A stretch of 44,758 nt of DNA from an uncultured Acidobacteriota bacterium (GCA_964568755.1 CAZMRX010000003.1:1-44758); one strand, 5' to 3'. Positions 1-44,758 are shown, counted from the stretch's first letter. The notes: generated by a model from the sequence alone, not told the origin. Program-made: numbers and translations.

Positions 1-18
1 GGTCGTCTTGCTCGTCGC

Positions 19-11592: not shown

Positions 11593-12225
11593 ATGGAGCC
11601 CCCATTCCCCTGGGCACTTGCCCTGAGCGCTGGCGCCTCGGTGGCGTCATCGTTCGCCAACAAGGGCGGCATCAGCTTGCAAACGCTCCGGCGTCGGGGC
11701 CGCTTCGTGCTCGACCAGCAGCGCCCCGTGCTGCTCCAGGCCTACGCGAAGGCGCGCGGCAAGACGCAGGAGGCGCTCGACACCGTTCGCACCGGCAACG
11801 TGAACGCGCTTCGGGCGACCGAGGACGCGCAGAACACGAGCATGCGGCTCGGGCTCGAGGCGACCCGCCAGGCGTCGCAGCAGCTCGGGCAGTCCTCGAC
11901 CTCGCGCGGGCTCGGCGGCACGAGCATCGCGGGCGCTGACCAGCGCGCCTTCTCGGAGACGAGCTCTCGCGTGCTCGACGAGATCAGCGCCCGCGGCGGG
12001 GCCGCGCGCGCGGGGATCTACCAGCAGGGCGCGGCGCAGGAAGCCGAGCTCCTCTCCGACCTCGGCCGGCTGTACCAGATGCAGTACCAATCCGAGGCGT
12101 CAGACTACTTCTCGCCCCTGTTCGACATCCTGACCGCGGGCGGCGGCGGTGGTGGCCAGCAGGGCGGCGGTGGCGTGGACATGAGCGGACTGTACGCCCT
12201 GCTGAAAGGTGCCGGCGTCTCGTGA
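11593..12225 (+). CDS. Internal virion protein-like (210 aa), gp14-position
   Basis: ATG ORF. The product is Ala/Gln/Gly-rich with an N-terminal hydrophobic segment and a GGGGGGQQGGGG tract, which is typical of ejection/core proteins. Confidence 0.5.
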   Translation: MEPPFPWALALSAGASVASSFANKGGISLQTLRRRGRFVLDQQRPVLLQAYAKARGKTQEALDTVRTGNVNALRATEDAQNTSMRLGLEATRQASQQLGQSSTSRGLGGTSIAGADQRAFSETSSRVLDEISARGGAARAGIYQQGAAQEAELLSDLGRLYQMQYQSEASDYFSPLFDILTAGGGGGGQQGGGGVDMSGLYALLKGAGVS

Positions 12226-13949
12226 GCCGCTTCGTCACGAACGACACGCCCGGCTGGGTGCGGGCCCTCTCGGGCCTATCCGCCACCGGGCACGGCATCG
12301 CGGAGTACCACCGCGGGCAGGCGCAGGACGCGCGCGCCGAGCGCGGGCTCGCTCTCCAGGAGCGGGCGGGCCAGCGCGCGGACGAGGCCAGCCAGCGCGC
12401 GCTCGAGCGCGAGCAGCAGGCGTTCATCGAGGACCAGCAGGACCGCGAGCTGCGGCGCAGCCAGGCGAAGGCCGAGCTCGAGTGGGACAGGTTCCGCTTC
12501 GACACGCAGCGACGCGTCGCGCCGCGGATCACGGGGGCCGGCTCGCTCATGGCGGCGACCGCCGGGGCCGCCCTCGAGCAGGAGCATGTGCGCCGCTCGC
12601 TCGAGACGCTCCCGCCGGGGCGCCGGCAGGAGGCCATCGACTACCTCGCGCAGCAGCAGCAGCAGCGCCAGACCGAGAAGGAGAAGCGCCAGCTCATGGG
12701 CGAGATCCAGGCGGCCATGGAGCCGCCGCCTGGCATCGAGCCCTGGCTGTCCCCCGAGCAGGGCCAGCAGATGATCGAGGACCTGGCGGACGTGAACCGC
12801 CCCGACATCGGGCCGCAGCAGATCCGCCAGGTGCTCGAGAAGCAGCGCGCCTTCGTGCGCAACCTGCGGGTCGCGCGCTCGACGTTCGCGGCGAACCACG
12901 CCATGGCGCAGCAGCTCGCCAATTCGCCCGAGCCGCCGCCCGAGCTCGGCATCTCCCGCGGCGAGTGGCTCGCGCGCCGCCGGCAGGCGAAGACCATCCT
13001 CGAGGGCTGGGCCACGGACTGGGGCGCGTTCGACCCGGACGAGAAGTACAAGGAGGTCATGGACGTGCTGCGCAGCACGCCGCGGAACGACCCGACCGAG
13101 GTGCGCCAAAGCGTGCTGCGCCAGCTCGCGGACGACCCGACCTACCAGCTCCTCGAGACGCCGGAGGAGCGCGCGCAGTACCGCGACGAGATGGTGCGGT
13201 GGGTGCTCGGCCAGGGGCAAGACAGCGAGCCTGCGGGGCCCGACGTGCAGCTCCCCTTCGAGGGAGACGGCCAGGGCTTCCAAGACTACTCCACGCAGTT
13301 CGAGAGCGAGCTCGGGCCGGACCTGGTGAAGGAGCTCGAACAAGCGGCCGGCTACGCGAAGACCCAGGAGGAGGGCGACGCGGCGGTGGTGAAGATCCTC
13401 GAACGCGAGAACATCTCGCCGGAGAGCGTGCCGCCGGAGCTCGGCGCGCGCCTGGCCCAGCGCGTAGGCACAGCCATAACGGCTCGGCTACCCCCGCGCT
13501 CCAGCGCCGAACGCGAGCAGATTCGCCAGGGCCAGAGCACCACGCGCGGGCCGACCGAGCAGGACTACCAGCGCCCGGCGCCGAAGGGCGGCCGGTTCGA
13601 CTTCCTGTCCAAGCTACTCGACGACCAGCAGGGCGCGAGCCCAGAGGCGCGCGCGCAGGGTGTGGCGCGGGGGAACAGCCAGGCGGCCATGCCTTCGGCC
13701 GCGGTCGGGCGCGGCCCGGTGGGCGCGGGCGCCGCGGCGGCGGTGATGGCGGCGGCCAAGGGAGTCGAGGCTGGCGGGAAGATCACCAAGCGCGCGCGCG
13801 GCGCGGGCACGTGGTCCCAGCTCTCCGCGATGGAGCGCGGGGTGCTGACGAGGCTCTTGCAGCGCGACCCGAAGCGCGCGCGCCTCGAGCTCGAGCGCCG
13901 GGGCATCGACCCGGCGACCGTCCCCCAAGGGCTCACGAAGAAGCGCTAG
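12222..13949 (+). CDS. Internal virion protein-like (575 aa), gp15-position
   Basis: GTG overlaps the previous stop (GTGA). The product is a long charged coiled-coil-prone protein. Position-based call. Confidence 0.5.
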   Translation: MSRFVTNDTPGWVRALSGLSATGHGIAEYHRGQAQDARAERGLALQERAGQRADEASQRALEREQQAFIEDQQDRELRRSQAKAELEWDRFRFDTQRRVAPRITGAGSLMAATAGAALEQEHVRRSLETLPPGRRQEAIDYLAQQQQQRQTEKEKRQLMGEIQAAMEPPPGIEPWLSPEQGQQMIEDLADVNRPDIGPQQIRQVLEKQRAFVRNLRVARSTFAANHAMAQQLANSPEPPPELGISRGEWLARRRQAKTILEGWATDWGAFDPDEKYKEVMDVLRSTPRNDPTEVRQSVLRQLADDPTYQLLETPEERAQYRDEMVRWVLGQGQDSEPAGPDVQLPFEGDGQGFQDYSTQFESELGPDLVKELEQAAGYAKTQEEGDAAVVKILERENISPESVPPELGARLAQRVGTAITARLPPRSSAEREQIRQGQSTTRGPTEQDYQRPAPKGGRFDFLSKLLDDQQGASPEARAQGVARGNSQAAMPSAAVGRGPVGAGAAAAVMAAAKGVEAGGKITKRARGAGTWSQLSAMERGVLTRLLQRDPKRARLELERRGIDPATVPQGLTKKR

Positions 13950-13959
13950 GCTCTCCCCC

Positions 13960-16900
13960 GTGGCCGACGAGAAGAAGCTGCGGGTGCTCCGGCCGAAGGG
14001 CCTGGGCGACAAGGCCCTGGACGTGGCCAAGGGCTTCGCGGCCGGGCTGACGCAGCTCCCCGAGGGCGTCGCTGGCGCCGCTGAGGCGGCCGGCGAGCAG
14101 ACCTCGCGCGCGCTCGAGGGCCCCTCGAACCTGCGCGTGCTGCGGCCCGGCCCGTCGGTGAGCTTCCCCGGCTCGCGCCTGGTGGGTGCGGGCGCGCGGC
14201 GCGCGGCCGGCGTGGCCGGCGGGGTGCGCCGGGCGGTGGGCGAGTTCACCCAGGAGAACCTGGCGGGCGAGGGACTCGCCTACCAGACGGGCCAGGGCCT
14301 CGGCTCCTCGGTTGGCATCGGTGGCACGGCGGCGCTGCTCACGACCGTGGGCGTGCCTCCAGTGGCGTCCGTGGCCGCGCTCGGGAGCATGCTCGAGGCG
14401 TCGAGCGCCTACCGAGAAGTGCTGAGGACGGCCAAGGACCCGAAGAGCGAAGCCGCACAGGATGCGGCCTTCGCGGCCTTCGTGGCCGGTGGGGCGATCG
14501 GCACGACCGAGGCGGTGCCTCTTGCCGGCCAGGTCGGCCGCTTCCTCGGGCGCGCGGACCGGGCCACGGGCGGGGCGCTGCGAAAGGCCCTCATCTCGGC
14601 CGGCGCGGAGGCCACCGAGGAGCTCGTCCAGGAGAACGTCCAGAACGTCCTGAGCGACGTGGCGGCCCGGTACGTGAGCAAGCACGACCAGGAGCGCGAC
14701 GTGCTCGGGGGCCTCCTTCAGCGCTGGCAGAGCGGCGAGGCGTGGCTTCCCCCGGTGGTCGCGGGCGGGCTGCTCTCGGCGGTGGCGAGCGCGGGCGAGC
14801 ACCGGCGCTCGACGACCAGCGTGGCGGGGTCAAGAACCGGCATGACCGGCCCGGAAGGGCCCGCCAGCGAGGGCGTGGCACCGAGCTCGACGACCAGCCA
14901 GAGAACGACCACGGAACGACCAGCCAGCGACCAACATGGATCGCGCGTGGATGCCCTTGGATCGATCCTGCCCGTCGAGCCGGCGCGGCCCGCATCCGAG
15001 AACGCGCGCCGGGTCGCGGCGCGCTTCATCGGCGAGCAGGGTGCCCAGGGCGCCGTGGTGCCCCCCCGCACCACGCACCAGCGCCGCGCGGCCGAGTTCT
15101 TCCGCCAGCGCGGCGCCGAGGCGGTCTTCATCGAGAGCCAGTCCGGCGAGCTCGCGGCCCCGGCCGGGTACTCATCGGGGGTGGCCGTCTTCGACGCGAA
15201 CCTCCCAGGCGAGCAGCTCGAGCGCCGGCTGGTGCTGCACGAGGCCCAGCACCACCTGCGGGCCCTGGTGGCCAAGGACGAGGAGACCTTCGCCGGCCTG
15301 GCCGCGGAGCTCGAGGGCGGCCTGCGCACGCTCGACCCCCAGGGGATGAAGAAGATCGAGGCCCGCGTCCGCGAGCAGTACGCGGCCCGCGGGCTCGACG
15401 AAGCCGGGGTCGCGGACGAGGTGGTGTCCAACTACCTCGAGGAGTTCGGGGCCCTGCTGTTCGAGGGCGCGCGCTTCGAGCAGGCCCTCGCGCAGCCCGG
15501 CCTCGGGCGCCGCCTGGTGGACGCGGTGCTGCGCCTCATCAAGAAGGCCGGGATCAAGATCGAGACCCTGACCGAGCGCCGACTGCGGAAGCTGCGCGAC
15601 CAGCTCGCGGAGACCGACATCGAGAAGGGAGCCGACCCCGCGACCATCCCGGCCATCGCCCGCACCGTGCGCAAGGTGTTCGACGAGCTTGCACAGCGGG
15701 CCGTTCCACGTGAAACTTCGCAACAACTTGACGCGCCGATCACCAGTCCGCCGGCCGAAGCCGCAGGCCCGACTCTGCTCGAGGTGCCGCCGGGCCCCGA
15801 AGCGGGGGACCAGCGGGATGTGCTCGGATTGCGTCAACGCGAACAGCCGGGAGTGGCGCCGGGCGCACCTCTGGACGTACCTGCCGCTCGAGGGCCTCAA
15901 GGTCCGCGGGTGCCAGGGGATCGGGGCGGCGCGCGCGGAGTGCGGACACCCCGCGGTGCTCTACCTGGATCCGACGCTGCGTCAGGGGCGGCGCCGCGTG
16001 CGCGTGCGCGTGGTGCCGCGGTGGTTCTGCCCGCAGCACCTCATGCTGCACCTGAGCGAGTCGCTCGGCCGGCTGGCCGAGCCGCTGCTCGACCGGCCGA
16101 GCTGAAAACCCCGGCGGCCGGTGTTCGATCCGCGCCGTCGGGCGACCGACGCGGAAAGACCGAAGCCGCCGGGGCCTCCTCCGCGGAGGTCGAGGTCGCC
16201 ACCTTCGACGAGTACGCGGCGAAGCGCGGCGTGCCGTCCAGCGCGCCATCCTTCCCAGAGGCGCACCGAGCTCCTGGCGGCGTGTCGAAGGCGTCGGCGA
16301 AGGCGATGGCAGGCCGGATCGCCAAGGCGAGCGCGGCGTGGCAGGCGCAGCGCGCCTCCATGCTGCGCGAGTACAAGGCCGCGGTGAAGGCGGGCACGGT
16401 GCGCGCTCCGAGCCGCGCCGAGAGGCTCACGGAGACCGCGCGCGGAGAAGGCCCGGCGGCCGAAGCGGCGCGGCGCCTGCTCGAGAGACAGCGACACACC
16501 CAAGCGCTGAAAGCCCTGCGCGGGCGGCTCGCCGAAGCCAAGAAGTTCGAGCCGAAGTACAACCAGGCCCTCCGGCAAATTGCGCGCAAGGTCGGGACCT
16601 CGCACCCGCCGGCCCTGCCGGGGTTGAAGAAGCTCAAGCGAGCCCTGGCGAAGGTGATGTCCGACTACGCCGGCGACGCGACCAGGATCCGCGACCTGGT
16701 GCGGGGCACGGTCGTCGTGGACACCATCGAGCAGGCCGAGCGCGCGGTGGCTCTGCTGCGCAAGCGCTTCGGGGCGCCCGTCAAGTTCCGCGACTTCTCG
16801 ATGCCGATCCCAGGCACGGGATACCGCGACATCTTCATGCAGTTCGAGCGGGCTGGCGGGCTCGCCTTCGAGGTACAGGTCAACGTGCCGGCGATGCTCG

Positions 16901-19900
16901 AGGCCAAGGAGCGCATGCACGCGCTCTACGAGGAGTGGCAGAACATCCAGCGCAGCGAAGGAGCGCGGTCCGTCGAAGATCAGGCGCGCAGCGACCAGCT
17001 CGAAGCGCAGCAGCGCGAGGTCTACGGGGAGGTTTGGGCGCGGGCCCTTGAAGCCACGCGGGCGAGCTCGACCACTACGAGGTCGCGGAAGGCTTCCTCG
17101 GAGATGGGCACGCCGTCCGAATCGACGGTCGAGCAATCAAAGCGCCGGCCGTCCTCGGAATCCCAGGCCGTGCAGACGGAGGACGCAGACCTCGACACGG
17201 GGAGGTCGTTGCAGTCCCAGAAGGTCGTCCCGGGCGGAAATGAAGAGGGGAGAGGCATCAGCAGTAGCCTAGCCGATGCATCGGCTGTAGCGAAGGAGAA
17301 AAACAAGGGAAAACCAGTAGAAATCCAGGCGCGACTCGGGCGCCAGGCCACGGTCGAGCTCGCGGACGGAGACTCCCTGCCGGTCACCTACGCCCTGGTC
17401 GAGGCGGAAGCCCTTGTCCCGAGCCACGACGCGCGCCGCGGCTTCGCCCCGAACGAGGGCGGCGACCTGAACGAGCGCCCTTACAACGATCCCGTCGAGG
17501 GCGCCCCCATGCGCGAGACCGTGCGCGGGATCGCGGACCGGCCCAAGGTCTCGCTGCTCACGACCGACACGCCTTCGCCGGTGGACGGCCCCCCGATCGT
17601 GACCACGACCGGCGTGGTGCTGGGCGGGAACGCCCGGACCATGGGGATGCAGCTCGCCTACTCCCGCGCGGACGCCCCCGCAGCGGCCCTGCGCGCGGGC
17701 ATGGTCGAGGCGGCGGCCCGGTTCGGCATCGACCCCCAGGGGATGGCAAACCCCGTCCTGGTGCGCGTGGTGGAGGCTGGACGCGAGGGCAAGCGCGGCG
17801 AGCTGTCGCGGGTCCTCAACGAGTCGCTGACCACCGGCAAGGGCGCCACGACCGAAGCGGTCTCGCGCGGGCAGAAGGTCACGCCCGAGGTGGCCACCCA
17901 GGTCGCGCGGCTGCTCGGCGACGGGACCCTGCGCGAGGCCCTCGGCGAGGCCAGCAAGGCGAACCAGGTGGCGCGGCTGATGATCCAGGCCGGCGCGCTG
18001 ACACAGCGCGACCTGGCGGAGCTCTTCAACCCGACCACCGGGATTCCGACCGCGGCCGGCAAGCAGGTGATCGAGGACGCGCTGCTCGGCTCGGTGATCC
18101 AGGACGTGCGCACCCTCTCGGAGACGCCGCCCTCCACGCGCAACGTCCTGCTGCGCTCCCTACCGTCGCTGGTGACGCTGCGCGGGCGCGTGGTGGGCTT
18201 CGACACGACCATGCGCAACGTGGCCCAGGGCGCGGCTGAGGTGGCGCAGACGGGCGCCCCGCTCAAGGACGTGCTCGGCCAGCAGGTCATGCCGGGGATC
18301 GACGTTGGCTGGAAGGGCGACGAGCTCGCGGTGGGGATCCTGCGCTCGATCCTGAGCGAGAAGCCCACGCGCATCTCCGAGCGCTTCGCCGGGCTCGCGC
18401 AGCGCGCGCGCGACATGGCGGCGGGCCAGGCGTCCTTCATCCCCGAGGATAACCTGCCGATCCGCCAGCAGCTCGAGAGCGAGTTCCGCTTCGCGCTGGC
18501 CAAGGGGGCCCGCACGCGCCCGCTCATCGAGCGGCTCGAGCGCGCCGAGACCGCAGGCGTCGGCGTGCTGGTAAGGCCCTCAAGCCCGGCCGAGCGCGCC
18601 TTCCTCGAGCACGCGGAGGAAGCCGGGCTCGCCGTGCAGGTGAAGGGCGGCGCGTGGCGCCTCGAGGCGGCGGACGTGCCCTGGGCCCTGGGCCTCGACC
18701 GAATCGAGCGCATCCTGCGCGCCAAGCGCGCGCGTGGGGTAGAGTTCGTCCATGCCCCAGGATCCCAAGCGCCGACCCTCGAAAGGCTACGCGGCGGGCC
18801 CCTCGCCCGAAGAACTGCGCGTGGACCCGCGGCATCGCCCGGTCTCGGTCTCGCGCATCAGCCGCCCGCGGCCCTCCGCACCTTCATCCAAGAAACGGTA
18901 GTCTGCGAGGGCCCCGAGCTCGCCATCGAGCCGGGGCACATCCACTCGACCCTGCCGGCGGACTACAGCGAGCCGACGGTGCCCCCGTTTGCGCTCGCTG
19001 GCCAGCGCCTCGGTCCCGACGAGATCCTCGCGCGCGTTCCGGCGTCGCCGATCATGGAACGCCTGTTCGTGGTGCAGGTCGCCAGGGACAGCACGGTGTT
19101 GTCGAGCTCGATCTTCAGCGTGGGATCCACAGCCGCGGCGCTCGTGCCGTCCACGCGCGAGCAGATGGAAGCGATGCTCGTCCCTCCGATGTCGGGCGAT
19201 CGGGTGATGTTCATCCACAACCACCCGAGCGGGGACCCGACCGTGAGCGTCGAAGACAGCATCTCGACCAACACGATGCGCCGAGCGGTGGACGCTTGGG
19301 CCCGCAGCGTCTCGGTGCCTTCGTACTTCGCGGTGGTCGGCAAAGACGCGGCGAACCACTACACGCGCACGCAAACGGTGCCCGCGACGGTCAAGACGCT
19401 CTACCCGCTCGAGCGCTTCCGTAGGCTTCTGTTCCCGCGCGGCCCCGAGCAGCTGCGGGCCATCGCGCAGCGTATCACACCGACCAACTCGAAGGCTGTC
19501 CTCGGCATCATGTTCACGGGCGACCAGCTGCGCGCCGTTGTGGCGTGGGACCGGATCCCGTCCACCGATCAGCTCCACGAGCTGATGATGGCCTACGGAG
19601 GGCACGACCTGTTCCTTGGGTCGCACGACGAAGAGACCGCGGGCCTCCTCTGGGAAACGCAGCTCCCGCCCTACGTGCGCGACGTGTTCACGCCCCAGGG
19701 CTACAGCGGGCCGCGGCGGAGCACGGGAGAACACCTCCACGACGTGCTGCTCGAATACGATCCGCGCGCTGATGCGGTGCGCTCGACGGCCAAGGCCGGC
19801 GTGCCCAAGAAGGGTGACACGCCGGGCCAGGCGATCATGTTCTCGCTGGGCTCCTCCTGGCGCCGCCAGTGGACATCCGAGGGGAACCTCCCGCGCCCCT

Positions 19901-22377
19901 TCTTCGACGCGAAGATCGCACGGGACGGCTGGATCAACGCCCACTTGCAGCGCTCCCGCGACCTCGACGTGGACCTGCGCCGGGCGATCAAGGCCGCATG
20001 GGGCCGCCCCACGCCCGCCCAGGTCGAGCAGATCGACCAGGCGTTCAAGTCGCGCGTGCAGCTCGCGGCCCTGCCGGAGGAACTCCGCGATCCCGTGCGC
20101 GCCATGCGCGAGCACGTCAAGGAGCTCTCGATGCACCTCATCGACAGCGGTGCGATCGAGGGCGAGCTCGTGCCCACGGTGCTCGCCAACCTCGACTTCT
20201 ACGCGACGCGCAGCTACCGCGTGTTCGACGACCCCAAGTGGGCCGAGCGCGTGCCTCTCGAGGTGCGCAACCGGGCGAAGGCCCTGCTGCGGATGTCGCG
20301 GCCGAAGGACACGGACAACCAGATCGAGCGCTACATCAACGCCCTGCTATACGAGGGCAAGGCCGCGCAGAACCCCATCGCCGTGCTCGCGCGCGGCGGC
20401 AAGCTGGGCTCGAAGGACCTGTCGATCACGAAGCGCCGCGAGGCGATCGCGCCCGAAATCCGCGCCCTGTTCGGCGAGTACACCGATGCGCGCGTCAACT
20501 ACGCCCGCTCGGTGGCCAAGATGGCTTTCCTCGTGGGAAACCACCAGTTCCTCGGCGAGGTCAAGGCCAAGGGCCTCGGGAAGTTCATCTGGCAGAAGGA
20601 CGACCCCAACGTCCCACCGGAGGCGAAGGCGACGCTCGCGGCCGACGAGACCAGCGTGCTCTTCCCGCTCAACGGGCTGGTGACCACGACCGACGTGGAT
20701 CAGGCGTTCCGCGACCACGCCGAGCGCGAGCAACTCCCGGCCTGGGCGCAGGCGTGGCTCACGCTCAACGCCGTGGCCAAGTACGGCAAAACCGTCGGGT
20801 CGGTGATGACCCAACTGCGCAACTGGACCGGCAACGTGCCCTTCGCCATGGCGCAGGGCCACTGGCGTGCGCATCGGCTGGTGGACGGGGTGCGCGCCGT
20901 GGCGACCACCTTCCACCGGATGAACGACCAGACCTGGCGCGACTACTACCGGAACGCTCTCCGCATGGGGGTGATCCACGAGAGCGCGAACGCGGGCGAG
21001 CTCCGAGCGGTGCTCGAGGACGTGTGGAGCGGGAGCCAGTCCATCGCACACCCGGAGAGTGCGCGCGGGCGCGTGCGCCGCGGCCTCGAGTTCCTCACGC
21101 GCGTGTACTCCGCGGGCGACGACTTCTGGAAGGTCTACGCCTGGGAGAACGAGAAGGCGCGCTACCGCAAGGCCGGCGTCTTCGCGTCCGAGGCTGAGCT
21201 CGAGCGCGAGACCGCGCGCATGGTCCGCAACACGTACCCGACCTACTCGCTCGTGCCCCGCGCCGTGCGCAAGCTGCGACGCTTCCCGCTGCTCGGCACC
21301 TTCGTCTCCTTCCCCTGGGAGGTCATGCGCACGACCAAGAACACGCTGGCGCTGATGGCGAGCGAGCTCAAGAGCTCCAACCGGCGCGTGCGGTTCATCG
21401 GCGCGCAGCGACTCGTGGGCTCCCTGGCGGCGGCCTCCTGGTCGGGCCTGCTGGCGACCTACGCGCGCCACCTGCTCGGCATGACGGACGACGAGGACGA
21501 GGAGGCGCGCGAGCTGCTCCCGGTGTGGAACAAGAACTCGGACATCCTCTGGCTCGGCCGCGACGAGAAGGGCAACCGGACCTTCGTGGACCTGTCCTAC
21601 ACGGACCCGTACAAGTACCTCAAGACCCCGCTGATGGCGCTCTTGCGCGGCGAGGACTGGCAGGAGAAGCTGACGCGCAGCGTGGGCGCGCTGCTCGAGC
21701 CCTTCATGTCCGAGGAGCTGGCGACCAAGGCGGCCATCGACCTCGCGCGCAACGCGACCAGCGAGGGCCGGCGCATCTGGAACCCGGCCGCGCCGCCCGA
21801 GGACCAGCTCGCGGACGTGGTGGCTCACATCGGCAAGGCGCTCGAACCGGGCACGCTCACGAGCCTGCGGCGGATCTACCTCGGCACGCAGGGCAAGGTG
21901 GTCGGGACGAAGGCGTACGACCCCCGCATCGAGACTCTGGCGATGACCACGGGCGTGCGCGTCTCCTCGCTCGACCTGGCGCAGGGGGTCTCCTACAAGG
22001 CGCGTGACTTCGAAGCCGCGTGGGGTGACGCCACGCGCATGCTGACGGGCGTGGTCGGGCACCGTGGCCAGGTGTCCGACGCCGAGGTCGAGGAGGCGTA
22101 CCGCGACTCCGAGCTCGTGCGCAGGAAGGCGTGGGATCGGCTCCAGAAGGCAATCAGCGCCGCGCGCGCCCTCGGGCTCGTGGATCGTGAGCTCCTCGCG
22201 CGCCTGGAACCAAACCTTGGGAAGGCGCGCGCGCTCGAAGCACTGCGCGGCAGGTACGCCGGCTACAGCCCCAGCTCCTCGTTCCTCTCGATCCAGTCTC
22301 GCGGCGCCAGCGCGTCCGAGCGGCGCGAGTTCTTGCGTCGCGGCCACTTGGTTCGCAGGTTGGCTCTATCCCGATGA
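13960..22377 (+). CDS. Giant multi-domain ('polyvalent') internal virion / ejection protein (2805 aa), gp16-position
   Basis: Single open frame of 8.4 kb with strong third-position G/C, except across ~15.69-16.10 kb and, more weakly, 18.75-18.90 kb. The N-terminal ~290 aa contain Gly/Ala-rich hydrophobic segments (GIGGTAALLTTVGVPPVASVAALGSML; AFAAFVAGGAIG; LPPVVAGGLLSAVASAG). Behind them lie HExxH, RelA/SpoT-like, ParB-like and RadC/JAB modules and a ~850-aa C-terminal region. Confidence 0.8.
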   Translation: MADEKKLRVLRPKGLGDKALDVAKGFAAGLTQLPEGVAGAAEAAGEQTSRALEGPSNLRVLRPGPSVSFPGSRLVGAGARRAAGVAGGVRRAVGEFTQENLAGEGLAYQTGQGLGSSVGIGGTAALLTTVGVPPVASVAALGSMLEASSAYREVLRTAKDPKSEAAQDAAFAAFVAGGAIGTTEAVPLAGQVGRFLGRADRATGGALRKALISAGAEATEELVQENVQNVLSDVAARYVSKHDQERDVLGGLLQRWQSGEAWLPPVVAGGLLSAVASAGEHRRSTTSVAGSRTGMTGPEGPASEGVAPSSTTSQRTTTERPASDQHGSRVDALGSILPVEPARPASENARRVAARFIGEQGAQGAVVPPRTTHQRRAAEFFRQRGAEAVFIESQSGELAAPAGYSSGVAVFDANLPGEQLERRLVLHEAQHHLRALVAKDEETFAGLAAELEGGLRTLDPQGMKKIEARVREQYAARGLDEAGVADEVVSNYLEEFGALLFEGARFEQALAQPGLGRRLVDAVLRLIKKAGIKIETLTERRLRKLRDQLAETDIEKGADPATIPAIARTVRKVFDELAQRAVPRETSQQLDAPITSPPAEAAGPTLLEVPPGPEAGDQRDVLGLRQREQPGVAPGAPLDVPAARGPQGPRVPGDRGGARGVRTPRGALPGSDAASGAAPRARARGAAVVLPAAPHAAPERVARPAGRAAARPAELKTPAAGVRSAPSGDRRGKTEAAGASSAEVEVATFDEYAAKRGVPSSAPSFPEAHRAPGGVSKASAKAMAGRIAKASAAWQAQRASMLREYKAAVKAGTVRAPSRAERLTETARGEGPAAEAARRLLERQRHTQALKALRGRLAEAKKFEPKYNQALRQIARKVGTSHPPALPGLKKLKRALAKVMSDYAGDATRIRDLVRGTVVVDTIEQAERAVALLRKRFGAPVKFRDFSMPIPGTGYRDIFMQFERAGGLAFEVQVNVPAMLEAKERMHALYEEWQNIQRSEGARSVEDQARSDQLEAQQREVYGEVWARALEATRASSTTTRSRKASSEMGTPSESTVEQSKRRPSSESQAVQTEDADLDTGRSLQSQKVVPGGNEEGRGISSSLADASAVAKEKNKGKPVEIQARLGRQATVELADGDSLPVTYALVEAEALVPSHDARRGFAPNEGGDLNERPYNDPVEGAPMRETVRGIADRPKVSLLTTDTPSPVDGPPIVTTTGVVLGGNARTMGMQLAYSRADAPAAALRAGMVEAAARFGIDPQGMANPVLVRVVEAGREGKRGELSRVLNESLTTGKGATTEAVSRGQKVTPEVATQVARLLGDGTLREALGEASKANQVARLMIQAGALTQRDLAELFNPTTGIPTAAGKQVIEDALLGSVIQDVRTLSETPPSTRNVLLRSLPSLVTLRGRVVGFDTTMRNVAQGAAEVAQTGAPLKDVLGQQVMPGIDVGWKGDELAVGILRSILSEKPTRISERFAGLAQRARDMAAGQASFIPEDNLPIRQQLESEFRFALAKGARTRPLIERLERAETAGVGVLVRPSSPAERAFLEHAEEAGLAVQVKGGAWRLEAADVPWALGLDRIERILRAKRARGVEFVHAPGSQAPTLERLRGGPLARRTARGPAASPGLGLAHQPPAALRTFIQETVVCEGPELAIEPGHIHSTLPADYSEPTVPPFALAGQRLGPDEILARVPASPIMERLFVVQVARDSTVLSSSIFSVGSTAAALVPSTREQMEAMLVPPMSGDRVMFIHNHPSGDPTVSVEDSISTNTMRRAVDAWARSVSVPSYFAVVGKDAANHYTRTQTVPATVKTLYPLERFRRLLFPRGPEQLRAIAQRITPTNSKAVLGIMFTGDQLRAVVAWDRIPSTDQLHELMMAYGGHDLFLGSHDEETAGLLWETQLPPYVRDVFTPQGYSGPRRSTGEHLHDVLLEYDPRADAVRSTAKAGVPKKGDTPGQAIMFSLGSSWRRQWTSEGNLPRPFFDAKIARDGWINAHLQRSRDLDVDLRRAIKAAWGRPTPAQVEQIDQAFKSRVQLAALPEELRDPVRAMREHVKELSMHLIDSGAIEGELVPTVLANLDFYATRSYRVFDDPKWAERVPLEVRNRAKALLRMSRPKDTDNQIERYINALLYEGKAAQNPIAVLARGGKLGSKDLSITKRREAIAPEIRALFGEYTDARVNYARSVAKMAFLVGNHQFLGEVKAKGLGKFIWQKDDPNVPPEAKATLAADETSVLFPLNGLVTTTDVDQAFRDHAEREQLPAWAQAWLTLNAVAKYGKTVGSVMTQLRNWTGNVPFAMAQGHWRAHRLVDGVRAVATTFHRMNDQTWRDYYRNALRMGVIHESANAGELRAVLEDVWSGSQSIAHPESARGRVRRGLEFLTRVYSAGDDFWKVYAWENEKARYRKAGVFASEAELERETARMVRNTYPTYSLVPRAVRKLRRFPLLGTFVSFPWEVMRTTKNTLALMASELKSSNRRVRFIGAQRLVGSLAAASWSGLLATYARHLLGMTDDEDEEARELLPVWNKNSDILWLGRDEKGNRTFVDLSYTDPYKYLKTPLMALLRGEDWQEKLTRSVGALLEPFMSEELATKAAIDLARNATSEGRRIWNPAAPPEDQLADVVAHIGKALEPGTLTSLRRIYLGTQGKVVGTKAYDPRIETLAMTTGVRVSSLDLAQGVSYKARDFEAAWGDATRMLTGVVGHRGQVSDAEVEEAYRDSELVRRKAWDRLQKAISAARALGLVDRELLARLEPNLGKARALEALRGRYAGYSPSSSFLSIQSRGASASERREFLRRGHLVRRLALSR
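15082..15489 (+). other. Possible zincin-like metallopeptidase module (HExxH at 15238-15252)
   Basis: The motif VLHEAQHHL (H427-E-A-Q-H431) lies in a helical context. This is a motif-only call; a short HExxH can occur by chance. Confidence 0.3.
15689..16105 (+). CDS. Nested +1-frame ORF encoding a Cys-rich zinc-ribbon protein (up to 138 aa; alternative ATG at 15818 gives 95 aa)
   Basis: Between ~15.78 and 16.10 kb nearly every third position of this frame is G/C (4 exceptions in the last 96 codons by my count). Over the same span the giant-ORF frame drops to roughly 60% and encodes Pro/Gly/Arg-rich low-complexity sequence. The product contains CSRC-x11-CSDC plus further C/H pairs (ECGH.., FCPQH). 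Start codon uncertain (TTG 15689, GTG 15710, TTG 15728 or ATG 15818). Confidence 0.6.
   Translation: MHSGPFHVKLRNNLTRRSPVRRPKPQARLCSRCRRAPKRGTSGMCSDCVNANSREWRRAHLWTYLPLEGLKVRGCQGIGAARAECGHPAVLYLDPTLRQGRRRVRVRVVPRWFCPQHLMLHLSESLGRLAEPLLDRPS
16612..16944 (+). other. RelA/SpoT-homologue (small alarmone synthetase / toxSAS-like) nucleotidyltransferase domain
   Basis: Residues ~885-995 read LPGLKKLKRALAKV..IRDLVRGTVVVD..PGTGYRDIFMQF..LAFEVQVNVP..RMHALYEE. This reproduces, in order and spacing, the basic patch, the D-x-x-[GR]-x-x-V strand, the G-Y-R-x-x motif, the E-[IV]-Q-[IV] motif and the H-x-x-Y-[KE] motif of RSH synthetase domains. Confidence 0.6.
17362..17784 (+). other. ParB/sulfiredoxin-like domain (tentative)
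   Basis: The segment ..YALVEAEALVPSHD..NERPYND..IADRPKVSLL..DGPPIVTTTGVVLGGNARTMGMQLAY.. resembles the ParB-nuclease core, with GGNAR in place of the usual GxHR. Confidence 0.3.
19027..19359 (+). other. RadC-like JAB/MPN domain
   Basis: Contains the classic RadC signature FIHNHPSGDPTVSVEDSISTNTMRRA (HNHPSG at 19216 onward). Confidence 0.8.
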
Positions 22378-22673
22378 ATGGAAGGCACGGCATGTCCGAT
22401 CGCTCGATTGACCTCTGGAAGATGGTAGGCACGGGCCTCTTCGGCGCGTGTCTCTCCGGCGTGGTGTTCTTCGTGCGCGAGGGCAATACCCACGCGACGC
22501 ACGACGAGCTGCGCGCCGCCTTGATCGAGGCCAAGGACTTTGCCGAGAAGGCGGGCCCCTACGTGCGCGACAAGGGAACGCTGTTCACCCGGCTGGATTC
22601 GATCGACGCGAACCTCGCGGACATCAAGGCGAAGCTCGACCGAGGAGAGCGCGCCGACCGGGGGGAGCGATGA
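22374..22673 (+). CDS. Membrane protein with one N-terminal TM helix and a coiled-coil tail (99 aa); holin- or i-spanin-like
   Basis: ATG overlaps the giant-gene stop (ATGA). The TM segment is MVGTGLFGACLSGVVFFV, followed by a charged helical region (..LADIKAKLDRGE..). Confidence 0.5.
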   Translation: MNGRHGMSDRSIDLWKMVGTGLFGACLSGVVFFVREGNTHATHDELRAALIEAKDFAEKAGPYVRDKGTLFTRLDSIDANLADIKAKLDRGERADRGER

Positions 22674-22870
22674 ACCTCCGCGGGGTTGAGGCGCTCTTCG
22701 CCAGCCGCAAGGGGACCGTGTTCGGCGGAACCTCAGCGATCGTGCTCGGCCTGATGGGGGACGGCGCCCTGCCGGTCCCTCTCGGGTCCAAGATGCTCGT
22801 CTTGTTGGCGTGCGTCCACATGCTTGGGCAGGGCATTGCGGACTTCGGTAGAGGTCCAGAGAGACAGTGA
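22670..22870 (+). CDS. Small two-TM membrane protein (66 aa); holin-like
   Basis: The ATG at 22670 (ATGA overlap) lies inside track ORF 22448-22870. Hydrophobic segments: GGTSAIVLGLMG and MLVLLACVHMLG. Confidence 0.5.
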   Translation: MNLRGVEALFASRKGTVFGGTSAIVLGLMGDGALPVPLGSKMLVLLACVHMLGQGIADFGRGPERQ

Positions 22871-23322
22871 TGGGAAACAGAATCCGAATCCTGGCGGCAT
22901 GCCTCGCGCTCGCGGGCTGCTCAGGGCCTGGAAACCACGATGTTGATGTCGAGTTCATCCACGGGATCGTGGCCGACACGAAGATCGCGGTGGAGCAGAC
23001 GGCGCTCGCGCTCGTCCCGGACGACCCGAAGCTGGCGGCCCGGCTCGGCGAGCTCGTGGTCAAGCTCGATTTGGTCGAGACGCAACTCGCCAACGCGATT
23101 GCCACCGGGGGCTCCCCGCAGGACGCCGTGGCCGCGATCGACACGGCGCTGGGCATGACGGCTTCGCTGGCCGAATTCTTCTCGATGGACCCCGCCAAGC
23201 AGGCCCGCGTTCGAGCTCTCGCCTACCTCGCGCAGGGGGCGCTGCGGATCATCCGCCGCCGCGTTGCGGATGACGGACAGCCAGCGGGAGGTTCTCCACC
23301 GGGGTCAACCCCTCCGGGCTGA
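22867..23322 (+). CDS. Lipoprotein (151 aa); o-spanin-like or exclusion lipoprotein
   Basis: The signal peptide carries a lipobox (ILAACLALAG-C). The start overlaps the previous stop. The 3' end overlaps the convergent gene 23249-23746 by 74 nt, and its third-position G/C decays there. Confidence 0.6.
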   Translation: MMGNRIRILAACLALAGCSGPGNHDVDVEFIHGIVADTKIAVEQTALALVPDDPKLAARLGELVVKLDLVETQLANAIATGGSPQDAVAAIDTALGMTASLAEFFSMDPAKQARVRALAYLAQGALRIIRRRVADDGQPAGGSPPGSTPPG

Positions 23323-28119: not shown

Positions 28120-28338
28120 CTACTTGCGCTCGTGGCGCGCGATCGAGGCGTTGGCCCAAAAGACCGCCTCTTCGAGCGCCGTCACGGCGAGGGACTGCTC
28201 GCGGCTCTCCGCGGTCTGCTCGATCAGGAACCGCGCGAACTCCAGCGCCTTCGAACGGATGGCCTCGTAGCGCACGGGCTGGTCCCCGAAGGGCGGATGG
28301 TAGACGAAGCGCTTTTGCAGGTCGCCAGGGGTAATCAC
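28120..28338 (-). CDS. Small two-helix protein (72 aa) immediately upstream of terL; possible Acb2/Tad1-hairpin-like nucleotide sponge
   Basis: The sequence ..FVYHPPFGDQPVRYEAIRSKALEFARFLIEQTAESREQSLAVTALEEAVFWANASIARHE fits a widespread phage helix-turn-helix-hairpin family (Y.PP..Q..Y..IR....A..I....SRE.SLA.T.LEEA..WANA.IAR). I recall this family as being annotated Acb2/Tad1 hairpin. Not verified. Confidence 0.6.
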   Translation of the reverse strand: MITPGDLQKRFVYHPPFGDQPVRYEAIRSKALEFARFLIEQTAESREQSLAVTALEEAVFWANASIARHERK

Positions 28339-44117: not shown

Positions 44118-44150
44118 TTGGACACCTCGGCCGTCTTCGGCAGCTTCGTG
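44088..44150. repeat. 63-nt gene-junction repeat, internal copy
   Basis: ggcgcgcgggtcgtcttgctcgtcgctcatttggacacctcggccgtcttcggcagcttcgtg is identical to 44696-44758 (the last 55 nt of that copy also equal nt 1-55). On the minus strand it encodes ..TKLPKTAEVSK-stop overlapping ATG-SDEQDDPRA. Confidence 0.9.
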
Positions 44151-44725: not shown

Positions 44726-44758
44726 TTGGACACCTCGGCCGTCTTCGGCAGCTTCGTG
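44696..44758. repeat. 63-nt gene-junction repeat, terminal copy (its last 55 nt equal nt 1-55, closing the genome)
   Basis: Read directly. See 44088-44150. Confidence 0.9.

What the first reader, a model, noticed from the sequence alone, without database searches (positions are those of the whole stretch)
13960..22377. 2,805-aa 'polyvalent' ejection protein combining membrane-insertion segments with at least four enzyme-like modules
At the position where T7-like phages encode the ejected core protein gp16, this phage has an 8.4-kb ORF. Its N-terminus carries Gly/Ala-rich hydrophobic segments of the ejection-protein type. Its body strings together an HExxH module (15238), a RelA/SpoT-like module (16.6-16.9 kb), a ParB-like module (17.4-17.8 kb) and an unmistakable RadC/JAB module (HNHPSGDP, 19216), followed by ~850 aa of unknown function. 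Giant multi-domain polyvalent proteins are known from phages and conjugative elements as delivered counter-defence toolkits. This domain combination in a capsid-internal protein of a 45-kb podovirus-like genome appears unusual. The genome lacks a recognisable endolysin or transglycosylase, so one unknown segment may provide wall-degrading activity.
Basis: partly seen in the sequence, partly recalled or inferred. Interest (0 to 1): 0.75.

Follow-up and report, generated by a model that had tools for sequence, protein, structure and literature searches.

The report
Giant multi-enzyme phage virion protein
A 45-kb phage genome encodes one 2,805-residue protein that strings four enzyme-like modules between two conserved carrier regions. 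It belongs to the known class of "polyvalent" proteins that phages are thought to pack into the virion and inject with their DNA.

Summary
ORF 13960-22377 (+) is real: 2,805 aa, GC3 0.90, and a syntenic 2,229-aa orthologue in a sister phage. All four proposed modules are supported:
- DdrB-type ParB (Pfam E 1e-16).
- RadC/JAB (E 2e-6, complete HxHx7Sx2D motif).
- A RelA/SpoT-type module whose only solved relative is the (p)ppApp-synthetase toxin Tas1 (E 1e-9).
- An HExxH...E zincin-like module with no Pfam model, but with H427/E428/H431/E487 invariant in 20 homologues and a confident zincin-like AF2 model.

The "850 aa of unknown function" is the most conserved part. It is an all-alpha domain found in at least 162 protein clusters. 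It usually sits in ~1,300-aa proteins at the same end-of-late-operon position. It is homologous to Cellulophaga phage phi18:3 gp123, which mass spectrometry detected in virions. The N-terminal Gly/Ala-rich region is also a recurrent module (124 representatives).

The protein is therefore a conserved carrier with about 1,650 aa of effector cargo inserted. The sister phage carries different cargo between the same ends.

This is a new member of the polyvalent-protein class (Iyer 2017). The Stx phage phi24B gp47 is a direct functional precedent.

Not supported: T7 likeness, gp16 homology and wall-degrading activity.

A conserved Cys-rich +1-frame ORF inside the linker is unexplained.

The parts
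13960..22377 (+). Giant gene, 2,805 aa, GTG start, TAG-terminated upstream gene 10 nt before
   Evidence: orthologue P0002 in L002
13960..14949 (+). N-terminal carrier module (aa 1-330). It has the LRVLRP motif twice (13978-13995, 14131-14148) and three Gly/Ala-rich moderately hydrophobic segments (14299-14385, 14467-14523, 14740-14796).
   Evidence: Kyte-Doolittle peaks 1.3-1.6. Region aa ~80-300 recurs at the N-terminus of 124 representative large proteins and of ~1,300-aa C-terminal-family members. No Pfam model.
14950..15729 (+). Zincin-like metallopeptidase module (aa 331-590): HEAQH at 15238-15252, putative third ligand E487 at 15418-15420
   Evidence: G385, H427, E428, H431 and E487 invariant in 20-21 homologues. 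AF2 pLDDT 86.5: beta-sheet, then the HExxH helix, then the E157 helix. Best but non-significant hits are IrrE (E 0.08-0.11), PrpR and ZMPSTE24 (E 0.3-0.55). No Pfam hit.
15730..16515 (+). Pro/Gly/Ala/Arg-rich low-complexity linker (aa 591-852). The left boundary of the cargo that differs from the sister phage lies here (aa ~662-715).
   Evidence: Composition. BLAST breakpoints. Flat substitution pattern and GC3 0.58 in codons 601-700.
15710..16105 (+). Embedded +1-frame ORF, 131 aa, Cys-rich (CxxC-x11-CxxC ... C ... CG.P ... CPQH). Status uncertain.
   Evidence: Carries the genome's coding GC signature where frame 0 does not. Conserved +1 ORF in L002: 53-55% identity against 42-44% in the other frames. 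Absent from L009. No family or other relative found.
16516..16989 (+). RelA/SpoT-homologue (toxSAS/Tas1-like) nucleotide pyrophosphokinase module (aa 853-1010). Motifs: IRDLVRGT 16687-16710, GYRDIF 16819-16836, FEVQVN 16867-16884.
   Evidence: Tas1 6OX6 E 2.9e-8 / 1e-9. Pfam RelA_SpoT E 5.4e-4 over profile positions 4-108 of 113, below cut-off. Homologous stretches in P0008, P0129 and P0238.
17335..18429 (+). DdrB-type ParB module with C-terminal extension (aa 1126-1490). Pfam core 17365-17772; GGNARTMG at 17623-17646.
   Evidence: PF18763 E 1.2e-16. phrog_5143 and phrog_2299. The whole 365-aa block is shared with P0006, P0007 and P0208.
18430..18999 (+). Orphan segment U1 (aa 1491-1680)
   Evidence: No Pfam, PHROG or PDB hit and no homologue among 248 collected proteins
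19000..19359 (+). RadC-type JAB module (aa 1681-1800): E1700, and HNHPSGDPTVSVED = HxHx7Sx2D starting at 19216
   Evidence: PF04002 E 2.4e-6. RadC 2QLC E 8e-4. NCBIfam RadC models match only sub-threshold, 23.7 bits against a cut-off of 180. One other carrier protein, P0133, has a RadC module.
19360..19839 (+). Orphan segment U2 (aa 1801-1960)
   Evidence: No hits
19840..22374 (+). C-terminal carrier domain, 845 aa, all-alpha, begins at FSLGSSWRRQW
   Evidence: phrog_22602 E 3.9e-46. At least 162 clusters. 23 invariant residues in 77 sequences. AF2 pLDDT 87.8, pTM 0.86. No PDB fold or profile hit. 77 BFVD hits in C-terminal pieces of phage polyvalent proteins. Homologue phi18:3 gp123 is a virion protein by MS/MS.
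11593..13949 (+). Two upstream genes (210 aa and 575 aa). With the giant gene they form a small/medium/large triad, conserved in position among relatives. They are candidate partner ejection proteins.
   Evidence: Synteny in L002, L004, L005, L009 and phi18:3. Weak homology of the 210-aa protein to L004. Sizes fit the gp14/gp15/gp16 ranges in PMC8954989. No family hits.

Best explanation
The gene encodes a phage-type polyvalent protein: one polypeptide that carries several effector enzymes on a conserved virion-protein carrier.

**Carrier (shown).** The carrier has two parts:
- an N-terminal Gly/Ala-rich module (aa ~80-300);
- an 845-aa all-alpha C-terminal domain.
In most relatives these two parts make up a ~1,000-1,500-aa protein encoded as the last large gene of the late operon.

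**Cargo (shown).** In this phage about 1,650 aa lie between the two carrier parts:
- a zincin-like HExxH...E module;
- a Tas1-like RelA/SpoT nucleotide pyrophosphokinase;
- a DdrB-type ParB module;
- a RadC/JAB module;
- two orphan segments.
The modules are separated by low-complexity linkers. The sister phage keeps both carrier ends and the zincin but carries different cargo.

**Mechanism (inferred, not shown).**
1. The carrier directs a few copies into the capsid.
2. At infection the protein is ejected through the short tail with or ahead of the DNA, together with the 210-aa and 575-aa proteins encoded just upstream.
3. The hydrophobic N-terminal segments engage the envelope.
4. The zincin may cut the linkers and release the modules.
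5. The released enzymes act before any phage gene is expressed. The RSH module makes (p)ppApp-type nucleotides, which deplete ATP or rewire host metabolism. The ParB and RadC modules act on nucleotides or DNA to blunt host defence against the incoming genome.
For: - **Module identities.**
- **Class membership.** ddrB-ParB is a signature domain of phage polyvalent proteins. Homologues that share parts of this protein carry ART-PolyVal, LPD1, LPD5, LPD38, Zeta toxin, SNF2 helicase and GNAT domains. Iyer et al. 2017 (PMC5512222) define the class and place such genes next to virion genes.
- **Carrier idea.**
  - P0002 shares aa 1-662 (61% identity) and aa 1959-2803 (71%) but not the middle.
  - P0003, P0004 and P0005 share only the C-terminal domain, behind quite different cargo.
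  - A size series runs from P0010 (N+C, 1,298 aa) through P0135, P0136 and P0134 to P0205 (3,938 aa).
  - BFVD fold hits are C-terminal pieces of phage proteins annotated with ART, Zeta toxin, helicase, LT_GEWL, RelA/SpoT or methylase domains.
- **Virion association.**
  - phi18:3 gp123 and its neighbours gp120 and gp121 are annotated from MS/MS of virions.
  - The gene sits last in the late operon in the window, L002, L004, L005, L009 and phage Y3.
  - The major capsid protein matches NCBIfam capsid_maj_Podo.
- **Precedent.** phi24B gp47 is a 2,811-aa polyvalent protein that is abundant in virions but invisible in cryo-EM, and has been proposed as an ejection protein.
- **Gene order.** The small/medium/large order and sizes match podovirus ejection-protein operons (PMC8954989).
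Against: - No experiment exists on this phage. Packaging is inferred from a homologue that is only 23.6% identical over the C-terminal domain.
- The C-terminal domain shows no similarity to any solved ejection or core protein. The best PDB hit with a phage link, T7 core 9jyy_I, has probability 0.25 and TM-score 0.16, and the profile search found nothing.
- The N-terminal segments are only marginally hydrophobic.
- The zincin has no significant family or fold match, so both its activity and its substrate are unknown.
- The RSH match to Pfam is below threshold, and the module's product cannot be read from sequence.
- A relative, Anabaena phage A-4L, is annotated 'tail protein'.
- The +1-frame coding signature in the linker raises the possibility that expression of this region is more complex than a single read-through.
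Confidence: 0.7

Rival explanations
1. It is an external tail or tail-associated structural protein, not capsid cargo. In this reading it forms a fibre, needle or nozzle extension whose enzyme modules act on the cell surface.
For: A structural relative in BFVD is annotated 'Tail protein [Anabaena phage A-4L]'. One homologue is named 'head-tail adaptor' by JGI. The gene follows large tail-like genes: the 458-aa protein hits the GTA_spike_fiber domain and the 1,293-aa protein hits phrog_578.
Against: The conserved domain is all-alpha and globular, unlike the beta-rich fibres and spikes. The cargo enzymes (RSH, ParB, RadC) have cytoplasmic substrates. phi24B gp47 was abundant by MS but absent from the resolved tail and capsid density. 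Database names here are unverified.
Confidence: 0.1
2. It is a non-packaged intracellular protein. In this reading it is a late-expressed anti-defence or inter-element conflict hub that works in the producing cell or the lysogen, and is not delivered with the DNA.
For: Iyer et al. note that some polyvalent proteins lie outside virion contexts. There is no direct evidence of packaging for this phage. The genome already encodes a soluble anti-defence protein, an Acb2/Tad1-like sponge.
Against: A homologue of the conserved domain was detected in virions by MS/MS. The gene always ends the structural operon. A Tas1-like toxin domain expressed freely late in infection has no obvious benefit.
Confidence: 0.1
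3. The 2,805-aa ORF is partly an artefact of a high-GC 'shadow' frame. In this reading the locus is really two or three genes: N-terminal module plus zincin; a small Cys-rich +1-frame gene; and RSH-ParB-RadC-C-terminal domain. Frame 0 would merely be stop-free across the middle gene.
For: Codons 601-700 have GC1/2/3 of 0.95/0.71/0.58, so the +1 frame carries the coding signature. The +1 ORF is conserved in the sister phage, with all Cys residues kept. Substitutions are not concentrated at frame-0 third positions there. The same shadow effect demonstrably extends ORF 6094-11229 over the real gene 5975-7351.
Against: A ribosome that starts at 13960 meets no stop until 22377, in either phage. Many homologues from other lineages join the same N-terminal module and zincin to further domains in one polypeptide with a similar low-complexity linker; L009 does so with a normal frame signature. 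The C-terminal domain is fused to upstream cargo in P0003-P0005, P0134, P0136, P0205 and P0234.
Confidence: 0.08

Closest known systems
Phage-type polyvalent proteins (Iyer, Burroughs, Anand, de Souza & Aravind 2017, J Bacteriol; PMC5512222)
   Same: - One polypeptide with several unrelated effector domains.
- Contains the signature DdrB-like ParB domain, a RelA/SpoT domain and a zincin-type HExxH module.
- Encoded beside virion genes.
- Mosaic cargo differs between close relatives.
- Relatives carry ART-PolyVal, LPD1, LPD5, LPD38, Zeta toxin and SNF2 domains.
   Different: - RadC was reported there only in conjugative-element polyvalent proteins. Here it sits with the 'phage-only' DdrB-ParB and RelA/SpoT domains.
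- The zincin does not match Pfam MPTase-type models, and neither carrier region has a Pfam model.
- The fixed N-terminal plus C-terminal carrier with cargo inserted between them is not, to my knowledge, described in that paper.
Stx podophage phi24B gp47 (vb_24B_48, 2,807-2,811 aa), proposed encapsidated ejection protein (bioRxiv 10.64898/2026.04.10.717836)
   Same: - Nearly the same size.
- Last gene of the late operon, after small and medium genes.
- A polyvalent protein with a metallopeptidase module.
- Found in virions by proteomics, invisible in cryo-EM, and proposed to form or extend the ejection conduit.
   Different: No detectable sequence or profile similarity to the window protein. 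It has different domains (LPD5, LPD1, LPD38, MuF-C). It is a functional and positional analogue, not a demonstrated homologue.
Cellulophaga phage phi18:3 gp123 (1,935 aa; Pachyviridae) and PHROG 22602 'virion structural protein'
   Same: Homologous over 89% of the C-terminal domain (tblastn E 2e-50; PHROG E 3.9e-46). It is the last gene of the structural block and was detected in virions by MS/MS.
   Different: Only 23.6% identical. It has a different N-terminal two-thirds. Its function and its location in the virion are unknown.
T7 gp16 and the gp14/gp15/gp16 ejection-protein operon of podoviruses (PMC8954989)
   Same: - A small (~200 aa), medium (431-982 aa) and large ORF in a row.
- The large protein is mostly alpha-helical, has hydrophobic segments and carries an accessory enzyme domain.
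   Different: - No sequence, profile or fold similarity.
- No lytic transglycosylase domain.
- Twice the size.
- The hydrophobic segments are N-terminal rather than C-terminal.
- The genome is not T7-like.
Tas1, type VI secretion (p)ppApp synthetase toxin of Pseudomonas aeruginosa (PDB 6OX6)
   Same: It is the only solved structure matched by the RSH module (E 1e-9, ~32% identity over ~100 aa). The two share the motifs D-L-x-R-x-T, G-Y and E-[VI]-Q-V-N-x-P-x-M. Both are delivered toxin-type domains.
   Different: The delivery route differs (phage virion against T6SS). No immunity gene was identified. The product and acceptor specificity are untested; other toxSAS enzymes pyrophosphorylate tRNA (PMC11782079).
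Phage N4 virion RNA polymerase (~3,500 aa)
   Same: A giant, encapsidated, ejected protein that acts enzymatically in the host before phage gene expression. It also contains a metallopeptidase-like region, according to Iyer et al..
   Different: It carries a single dedicated function, transcription. There is no homology.

Membership tests
Polyvalent proteins (Iyer et al. 2017) | Two to fifteen unrelated effector domains in one polypeptide | tested here: met
   Four enzyme-type modules plus two carrier modules in one ORF
Polyvalent proteins (Iyer et al. 2017) | Contains domains characteristic of the class (DdrB-ParB, MPTase, RelA/SpoT, LPDs and others) | tested here: met
   PF18763 at 61.4 bits. 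RelA/SpoT-type module. Partial homologues carry ART-PolyVal, LPD1, LPD5, LPD38 and Zeta toxin. No LPD or MPTase-PolyVal Pfam model hits the window protein itself.
Polyvalent proteins (Iyer et al. 2017) | Encoded in a mobile element, next to late or virion genes for the phage type | tested here: met
   Circular 44.7-kb contig with TerL and a podovirus-type major capsid protein. The gene ends the plus-strand late block.
Polyvalent proteins (Iyer et al. 2017) | Delivered into the new host with the DNA | not testable with these tools
   Only indirect evidence: a homologue in phi18:3 virions by MS/MS and the phi24B precedent
T7 gp16-type internal core / ejection protein | Sequence or fold similarity to gp16 | tested here: not met
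   Foldseek of the C-terminal model against PDB: 9jyy_I at E 0.52, probability 0.25, TM-score 0.16. Profile A1 against PDB sequences found nothing. Whole-protein phmmer against PDB found only Tas1 and RadC.
T7 gp16-type internal core / ejection protein | N-terminal lytic transglycosylase domain (T7-like subgroup) | tested here: not met
   No SLT or lysozyme hit in Pfam, PHROGs or NCBIfam
T7 gp16-type internal core / ejection protein | Third and largest ORF of a gp14-like / gp15-like / gp16-like operon | tested here: inconclusive
   Sizes of 210, 575 and 2,805 aa and the gene order fit. The two upstream proteins have no detectable family.
RelA/SpoT homologue synthetase (toxSAS, Tas1-like) | Match to the RSH synthetase domain | tested here: inconclusive
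   Tas1 E 1e-9. Pfam PF04607 covers positions 4-108 of 113 but scores 20.6 bits, below the cut-off of 27.
RelA/SpoT homologue synthetase (toxSAS, Tas1-like) | Catalytic motifs: Mg-binding Asp, G-loop Tyr, and E-x-Q | tested here: met
   By inspection of the Tas1 alignment: D912 in IRDLVRGT, G953-Y954, and E971-V-Q973. Residue roles are taken from FaRel2 in PMC11782079 and were not mapped structurally here.
RelA/SpoT homologue synthetase (toxSAS, Tas1-like) | Makes (p)ppApp | not testable with these tools
   Needs an enzyme assay
DdrB-like ParB (PF18763) | Score above the Pfam gathering threshold over the full domain | tested here: met
   61.4 bits against 27.6, profile positions 2-120 of 121. 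GGNAR motif present.
RadC-type JAB (PF04002) | Pfam threshold, and the JAMM metal site E ... HxHx7Sx2D | tested here: met
   27.9 bits against 22.1. E1700 and H1753-N-H-PSGDPTV-S-VE-D are read directly from the sequence. 2QLC E 8e-4.
Zincin (gluzincin-like) metallopeptidase | HExxH on a helix after a beta-sheet, with a downstream Glu ligand, all conserved | tested here: met
   H427, E428, H431 and E487 invariant in 20-21 homologues. The AF2 model shows strands 34-82, helix 87-109 with HExxH, and helix 151-171 with E157.
Zincin (gluzincin-like) metallopeptidase | Significant match to a described peptidase family or fold | tested here: inconclusive
   No Pfam hit. IrrE E 0.08-0.11. PrpR (6d2s) E 0.29 and ZMPSTE24 E 0.55.
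PHROG 22602 / C-terminal carrier family | Full-length match to the conserved ~800-aa domain | tested here: met
   E 3.9e-46. 32-72% identity to 76 relatives, with 23 invariant residues.

The most novel reading that the evidence does not exclude
The N-terminal Gly/Ala-rich module plus the 845-aa all-alpha C-terminal domain form a previously undescribed and widespread family of podovirus ejection proteins. The family would be a functional counterpart of T7 gp16 with no detectable homology to it. It would serve as a general carrier into which phages insert exchangeable effector cargo between two fixed ends. Accretion of cargo may be helped, in high-GC genomes, by read-through across small genes in stop-free 'shadow' frames; the conserved Cys-rich +1 ORF in the linker would be a surviving example.
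Probability: 0.35. Interest if true: 0.7.

Novelty: new member of a known kind. Interest (0 to 1): 0.5.

Why it matters
Polyvalent proteins are predicted to be the first phage-made molecules to act in an infected cell, yet almost none has been studied experimentally. This example is useful for four reasons.
- **Separable carrier and cargo.** It separates a conserved carrier from exchangeable cargo, and a sister phage carries different cargo between the same ends. That points to a general rule for how phages load effectors into virions, and it identifies three domain families that still lack models.
- **A toxin-type module in a virion protein.** It places a Tas1-like alarmone-synthetase toxin domain in a likely injected protein. 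This makes the idea that phages inject nucleotide-depleting enzymes directly testable.
- **RadC in a phage carrier.** It puts RadC, which has no agreed biochemical function, in a defined phage-entry context.
- **Cultured relatives exist.** Cellulophaga phi18:3, Pseudoalteromonas phage Y3, Pelagibacter HTVC027P and Anabaena A-4L allow experiments on the carrier.

It does not change the current picture. It fills it in.

Tried and rejected
- **Close phage relatives by DNA.** Megablast of the gene against 50,697 phage records found nothing.
- **T7 gp16 or any solved ejection protein.** Foldseek against PDB and the A1 profile against PDB sequences gave nothing significant. The idea was rejected as homology and kept only as an analogy.
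- **Homology to phi24B gp47.** BLASTP and hhalign were both negative.
- **LPD38 identity of the C-terminal domain.** There is no Pfam hit, and hhalign of A1 against the LPD38-bearing P0006 and P0008 was negative. BFVD fold hits do include LPD38-annotated proteins, so this stays unresolved.
- **A wasted search.** The third homologous-protein search used a chimeric query (zincin + RSH + aa 1491-1960). It returned one weak hit and did not even recover P0002. The exhaustive representative search later supplied the zincin homologues.
- **Wall-degrading module.** None was found in any library.
- **Defence-system similarity.** PADLOC gave no hits.
- **Typing the neighbours** (210, 575, 1,293 and 668 aa). 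Pfam, PHROGs, NCBIfam and PDB gave nothing beyond weak spike-fibre and Hc3 hints.
- **More copies of the +1 ORF.**
  - The 17-mer scan of viral contigs gave 70 chance hits and no relative.
  - The metagenome scan gave one hit, which lies antisense to an RCC1-repeat gene.
  - Phage tblastn, Pfam and PDB found nothing.
- **Frameshift in ORF 6094-11229.** Rejected. It is a shadow-frame extension over the real genes 5975-7351 and ~7348-11229, as shown by synteny.


Full report
**1. The observation**

ORF 13960-22377 on the plus strand is in the sequence as described: GTG start, 2,805 codons. The window is 70% GC, and in such DNA long open frames arise by chance; a 1,288-aa antisense ORF lies at 7306-11172. 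ORF length therefore proves nothing, but three other results show this one is coding.
- GC at codon positions 1/2/3 is 0.72/0.52/0.90, the signature of the other real genes here. GC3 stays at 0.79-1.0 in 27 of 28 hundred-codon windows.
- A sister phage contig (L002) has a syntenic 2,229-aa orthologue, P0002, that begins with the same MAD(E/D)KKLRVLRP.
- Differences between the two genes concentrate at third positions in codons 1-600.

The contig ends overlap by exactly 55 bp. The window is therefore a complete, circularly assembled genome of 44,703 bp.

**2. The four proposed modules**

- *DdrB-type ParB.* Pfam PF18763 matches aa 1136-1271 at E 1.2e-16 (61.4 bits, cut-off 27.6). The homologous block shared with P0006, P0007 and P0208 extends to aa ~1490.
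- *RadC/JAB.* Pfam PF04002 matches aa 1700-1778 at E 2.4e-6 (27.9 bits, cut-off 22.1), and PDB RadC 2QLC at E 8e-4. The full JAMM signature can be read from the sequence: E1700 and HNH-PSGDPTV-S-VE-D.
- *RelA/SpoT-like.* The only solved structure matched is Tas1, the (p)ppApp-synthetase T6SS toxin (6OX6; E 2.9e-8 for the whole protein, 1e-9 for the segment). Pfam RelA_SpoT covers 105 of 113 profile positions at E 5.4e-4 but is sub-threshold. The Tas1 alignment keeps the Asp motif (IRDLVRGT against IKDLARNT), the Gly-Tyr of the acceptor loop, and E-V-Q-V-N-x-P-x-M against E-I-Q-V-N-x-P-x-M. Residue roles are taken from FaRel2 in PMC11782079.
  - The exhaustive search of 1.84 billion representatives with aa 1-620 found 124 proteins. 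About 15-20 of them carry this module.
  - In two independent alignments G385, H427, E428, H431 and E487 are the only invariant columns, at 23-37% identity.
  - An AF2 model built on that alignment is confident (pLDDT 86.5, pTM 0.79). It has the zincin layout: a small beta-sheet, a long helix carrying HExxH, and a later helix carrying the invariant Glu.
  - The best profile hits in PDB are the IrrE/ImmA-type zinc proteases (E 0.08-0.11). The best fold hits are 6d2s/6cz6, which from my own knowledge are PrpR with an IrrE-like domain, and the zinc protease ZMPSTE24. None is significant (E of at least 0.29).
  - I conclude that this is a real, conserved zincin-like module of a family without a model. 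Its substrate is unknown.

**3. The rest of the protein**

*C-terminal domain.* The "~850 aa of unknown function" (aa 1961-2805) is the best conserved part.
- It matches phrog_22602 'virion structural protein' at E 3.9e-46.
- It has at least 162 relatives among the 8,000 candidates scored. Most are 750-1,480-aa proteins on 45-55-kb contigs.
- 77 aligned sequences share 23 invariant residues, many of them charged.
- The AF2 model is confident (pLDDT 87.8, pTM 0.86) and entirely alpha-helical.
- No solved structure resembles it by fold or profile.
- In the viral predicted-structure library it matches 77 entries. Most are C-terminal pieces of large phage proteins annotated as polyvalent-protein-associated or as carrying ART, Zeta toxin, helicase, LT_GEWL, RelA/SpoT or methylase domains.
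- Among cultured phages it occurs in Cellulophaga phages phi18:3, phi13:2 and phi19:3, Pelagibacter HTVC027P and Pseudoalteromonas vB_Pun_Y3, with a weaker partial match in Xanthomonas DES1. phi18:3 gp123 is annotated 'virion structural protein ... based on experimental MS/MS proteomics'.

*N-terminal region.* The segment aa ~80-300, which holds the three Gly/Ala-rich segments (Kyte-Doolittle 1.3-1.6), is also a recurrent module. It sits at the N-terminus of most of the 124 representatives (1.2-4.3 kaa) and of ~1,300-aa members of the C-terminal family.

*Orphan segments.* aa 1491-1680 and aa 1801-1960 have no relatives at all.

**4. Architecture: carrier plus cargo**

- P0002 shares aa 1-662 (61% identity) and aa 1959-2803 (71%) with the window protein, but has an unrelated 740-aa middle.
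- P0003 (Zeta toxin + DdrB-ParB), P0004 (SNF2/DEAD helicase) and P0005 (LPD1, LPD5) share only the C-terminal domain.
- A size series exists: P0010 is N-terminal module + C-terminal domain (1,298 aa); P0135 is zincin + C-terminal domain; P0136 and P0134 are N-terminal module + zincin + 500-1,100 aa + C-terminal domain; P0234 and P0205 exceed 3,000 aa.
- In phage Y3 a 3,421-aa DdrB-ParB giant and a 1,027-aa protein holding the C-terminal domain (annotated ADP-ribosyltransferase) are adjacent separate genes.
- Proteins sharing the N-terminal module and zincin carry ART-PolyVal (11 of 20), LPD38 (10 of 20), GNAT (3) and RadC (2).

The window protein is therefore a conserved two-ended carrier with about 1,650 aa of cargo between the ends, and the cargo is exchanged between close relatives.

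**5. Genomic context**

The gene is the last large gene of the plus-strand late block. Upstream lie:
- a major capsid protein matching NCBIfam capsid_maj_Podo (76.7 bits, cut-off 80);
- a 458-aa protein with a spike-fibre domain hint;
- a 1,293-aa protein;
- genes of 119, 210 and 575 aa.

TerL and a 668-aa protein lie on the minus strand. The order small (~200 aa), medium (390-575 aa), giant recurs in L002, L004, L005, L009 and phi18:3. Those sizes fall in the ranges of the gp14-, gp15- and gp16-like ejection proteins of podoviruses reviewed in PMC8954989.

This is an analogy of order and size only. The 210-aa and 575-aa proteins match no family, and the genome is not T7-like: TerL is at most 30% identical to Streptomyces, Thermobifida and haloarchaeal phage terminases.

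**6. Mechanism**

*Shown:* the module identities, the carrier/cargo architecture, the late-operon position, and homology to a virion protein detected by MS.

*Inferred:*
- The carrier brings the protein into the capsid.
- It leaves through the tail at infection, with the two upstream proteins.
- The hydrophobic N-terminal segments engage the envelope.
- The zincin cuts the linkers, which is the role Iyer et al. propose for MPTases in polyvalent proteins.
- The RSH, ParB and RadC modules act in the cytoplasm before phage genes are expressed.

By similarity to Tas1, the RSH module would pyrophosphorylate adenine nucleotides and lower ATP. tRNA-modifying toxSAS enzymes show that the acceptor cannot be inferred from sequence. 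DdrB of P1 is a head-packaged protein; Iyer et al. favour nucleotide sensing or degradation as the role of such ParB domains.

I put 0.7 on the overall reading, about 0.9 on class membership and about 0.55 on actual ejection into the cell.

**7. Comparison with what is known**

- The class was defined in 2017 (PMC5512222).
- A 2026 preprint reports that the 2,811-aa polyvalent protein gp47 of the Stx podophage phi24B is abundant in virions by proteomics and absent from cryo-EM density, and proposes it as an ejection protein. That protein occupies the same genomic position but shows no detectable similarity to the window protein.
- The finding is therefore a new member of a known kind.
- Three departures are modest but real:
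  - RadC occurs together with DdrB-ParB and RelA/SpoT, which the 2017 census assigned to different element types.
  - Three recurrent modules lack any family model.
  - The insertion-between-fixed-ends architecture is explicit here.

**8. The linker anomaly**

- In codons 601-700 the ORF has GC1/2/3 of 0.95/0.71/0.58. The +1 frame therefore has the genome's coding signature there.
- That frame is open from 15572 to 16105. From a GTG at 15710, inside a 17-nt stretch identical in both phages, it encodes 131 aa with CxxC-x11-CxxC, further Cys residues and a CPQH motif.
- The sister phage has the same +1 ORF, with every Cys conserved. Identity is 53-55%, against 42-44% in the other two frames and 65% at nucleotide level.
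- A more distant relative of similar GC content (L009) has a normal frame signature and no such ORF in its linker.
- The region of similarity between the window and the sister phage ends close to the stop of this ORF.
- Frame 0 has no stop in either phage. That is expected by chance when its first codon position coincides with the GC-rich third position of another frame. The giant polypeptide therefore still stands.
- A small overprinted or captured gene is likely present. No relative or family was found for it.

**9. Verdict**

The protein is an informative new member of the polyvalent-protein class, with interest about 0.5. The most novel reading still open is this: the two carrier modules define a widespread, undescribed ejection-protein family that serves as a general cargo carrier.

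Noticed in passing
window 15710-16105 (+), +1 frame inside the giant gene; L002 11667-12086: A conserved Cys-rich 131-aa ORF is overprinted on the low-complexity linker. It carries the genome's codon-position GC signature where the giant ORF's frame does not. All Cys residues are conserved in the sister phage. It is absent from the more distant L009, and no family or other relative was found.
   Followed up: partly
window 13978-13995 and 14131-14148; N-termini of P0139, P0143, P0152, P0171, P0172, P0182, P0186, P0190 and others: The extreme N-terminus carries a short peptide twice (LRVLRP here). 25 of 101 proteins sharing the N-terminal module have a duplicated 9-mer (at least 7 of 9 identical) within their first 110 aa. 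The count is 0 of 101 after shuffling and 1 of 101 in an internal region. The repeat sequence differs between lineages. It may be a binding or packaging signal.
   Followed up: partly
window 28120-28338 (-): A 72-aa protein with an Acb2/Tad1 hairpin domain (PF24729, E 1.6e-17). This is the family of cyclic-nucleotide sponges that counter CBASS and Thoeris. It lies next to the large terminase gene.
   Followed up: no
window 22374-22673 (+) and 22867-23322 (+): Directly after the giant gene lie a 99-aa protein with one strongly hydrophobic segment and a 151-aa protein with a lipoprotein-type signal (LAGC). These are possible holin/spanin-type lysis genes. No endolysin was recognised by Pfam in the ORFs scanned.
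   Followed up: partly
window 6094-11229 (+) versus 5975-7351 (+): The 1,711-aa ORF is a shadow-frame 5' extension. By synteny with L002 the real genes are 5975-7351 (458 aa, GTA_spike_fiber domain hint) and ~7348-11229 (~1,293 aa).
   Followed up: yes
window 1-55 = 44704-44758; also 44088-44150: The contig ends overlap by exactly 55 bp, giving a circular assembly of 44,703 bp. A 63-bp exact direct repeat lies 608 bp apart (44088-44150 and 44696-55). It spans the start of the minus-strand gene at 44114-44725 and the sequence upstream of that start.
   Followed up: partly
window 44114-44725 (-): Pentapeptide-repeat protein (PF00805, E 1.6e-10).
   Followed up: no
window 35851-36795 (-) and 2461-3651 (+): A PD-(D/E)XK exonuclease VIII-like recombination nuclease (DUF3799 E 6.5e-29; phrog_412 E 1.4e-76). 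Also a major capsid protein matching NCBIfam capsid_maj_Podo just below its cut-off.
   Followed up: no
L001 (Pseudoalteromonas phage vB_Pun_Y3) 4191-17565: In this cultured 48.9-kb phage the cargo and the carrier domain are split into two adjacent genes. One is a 3,421-aa 'DdrB-like ParB' giant. The other is a 1,027-aa 'ADP-ribosyltransferase' that holds the C-terminal carrier domain (33% identity). It is a natural system for testing the carrier idea.
   Followed up: no
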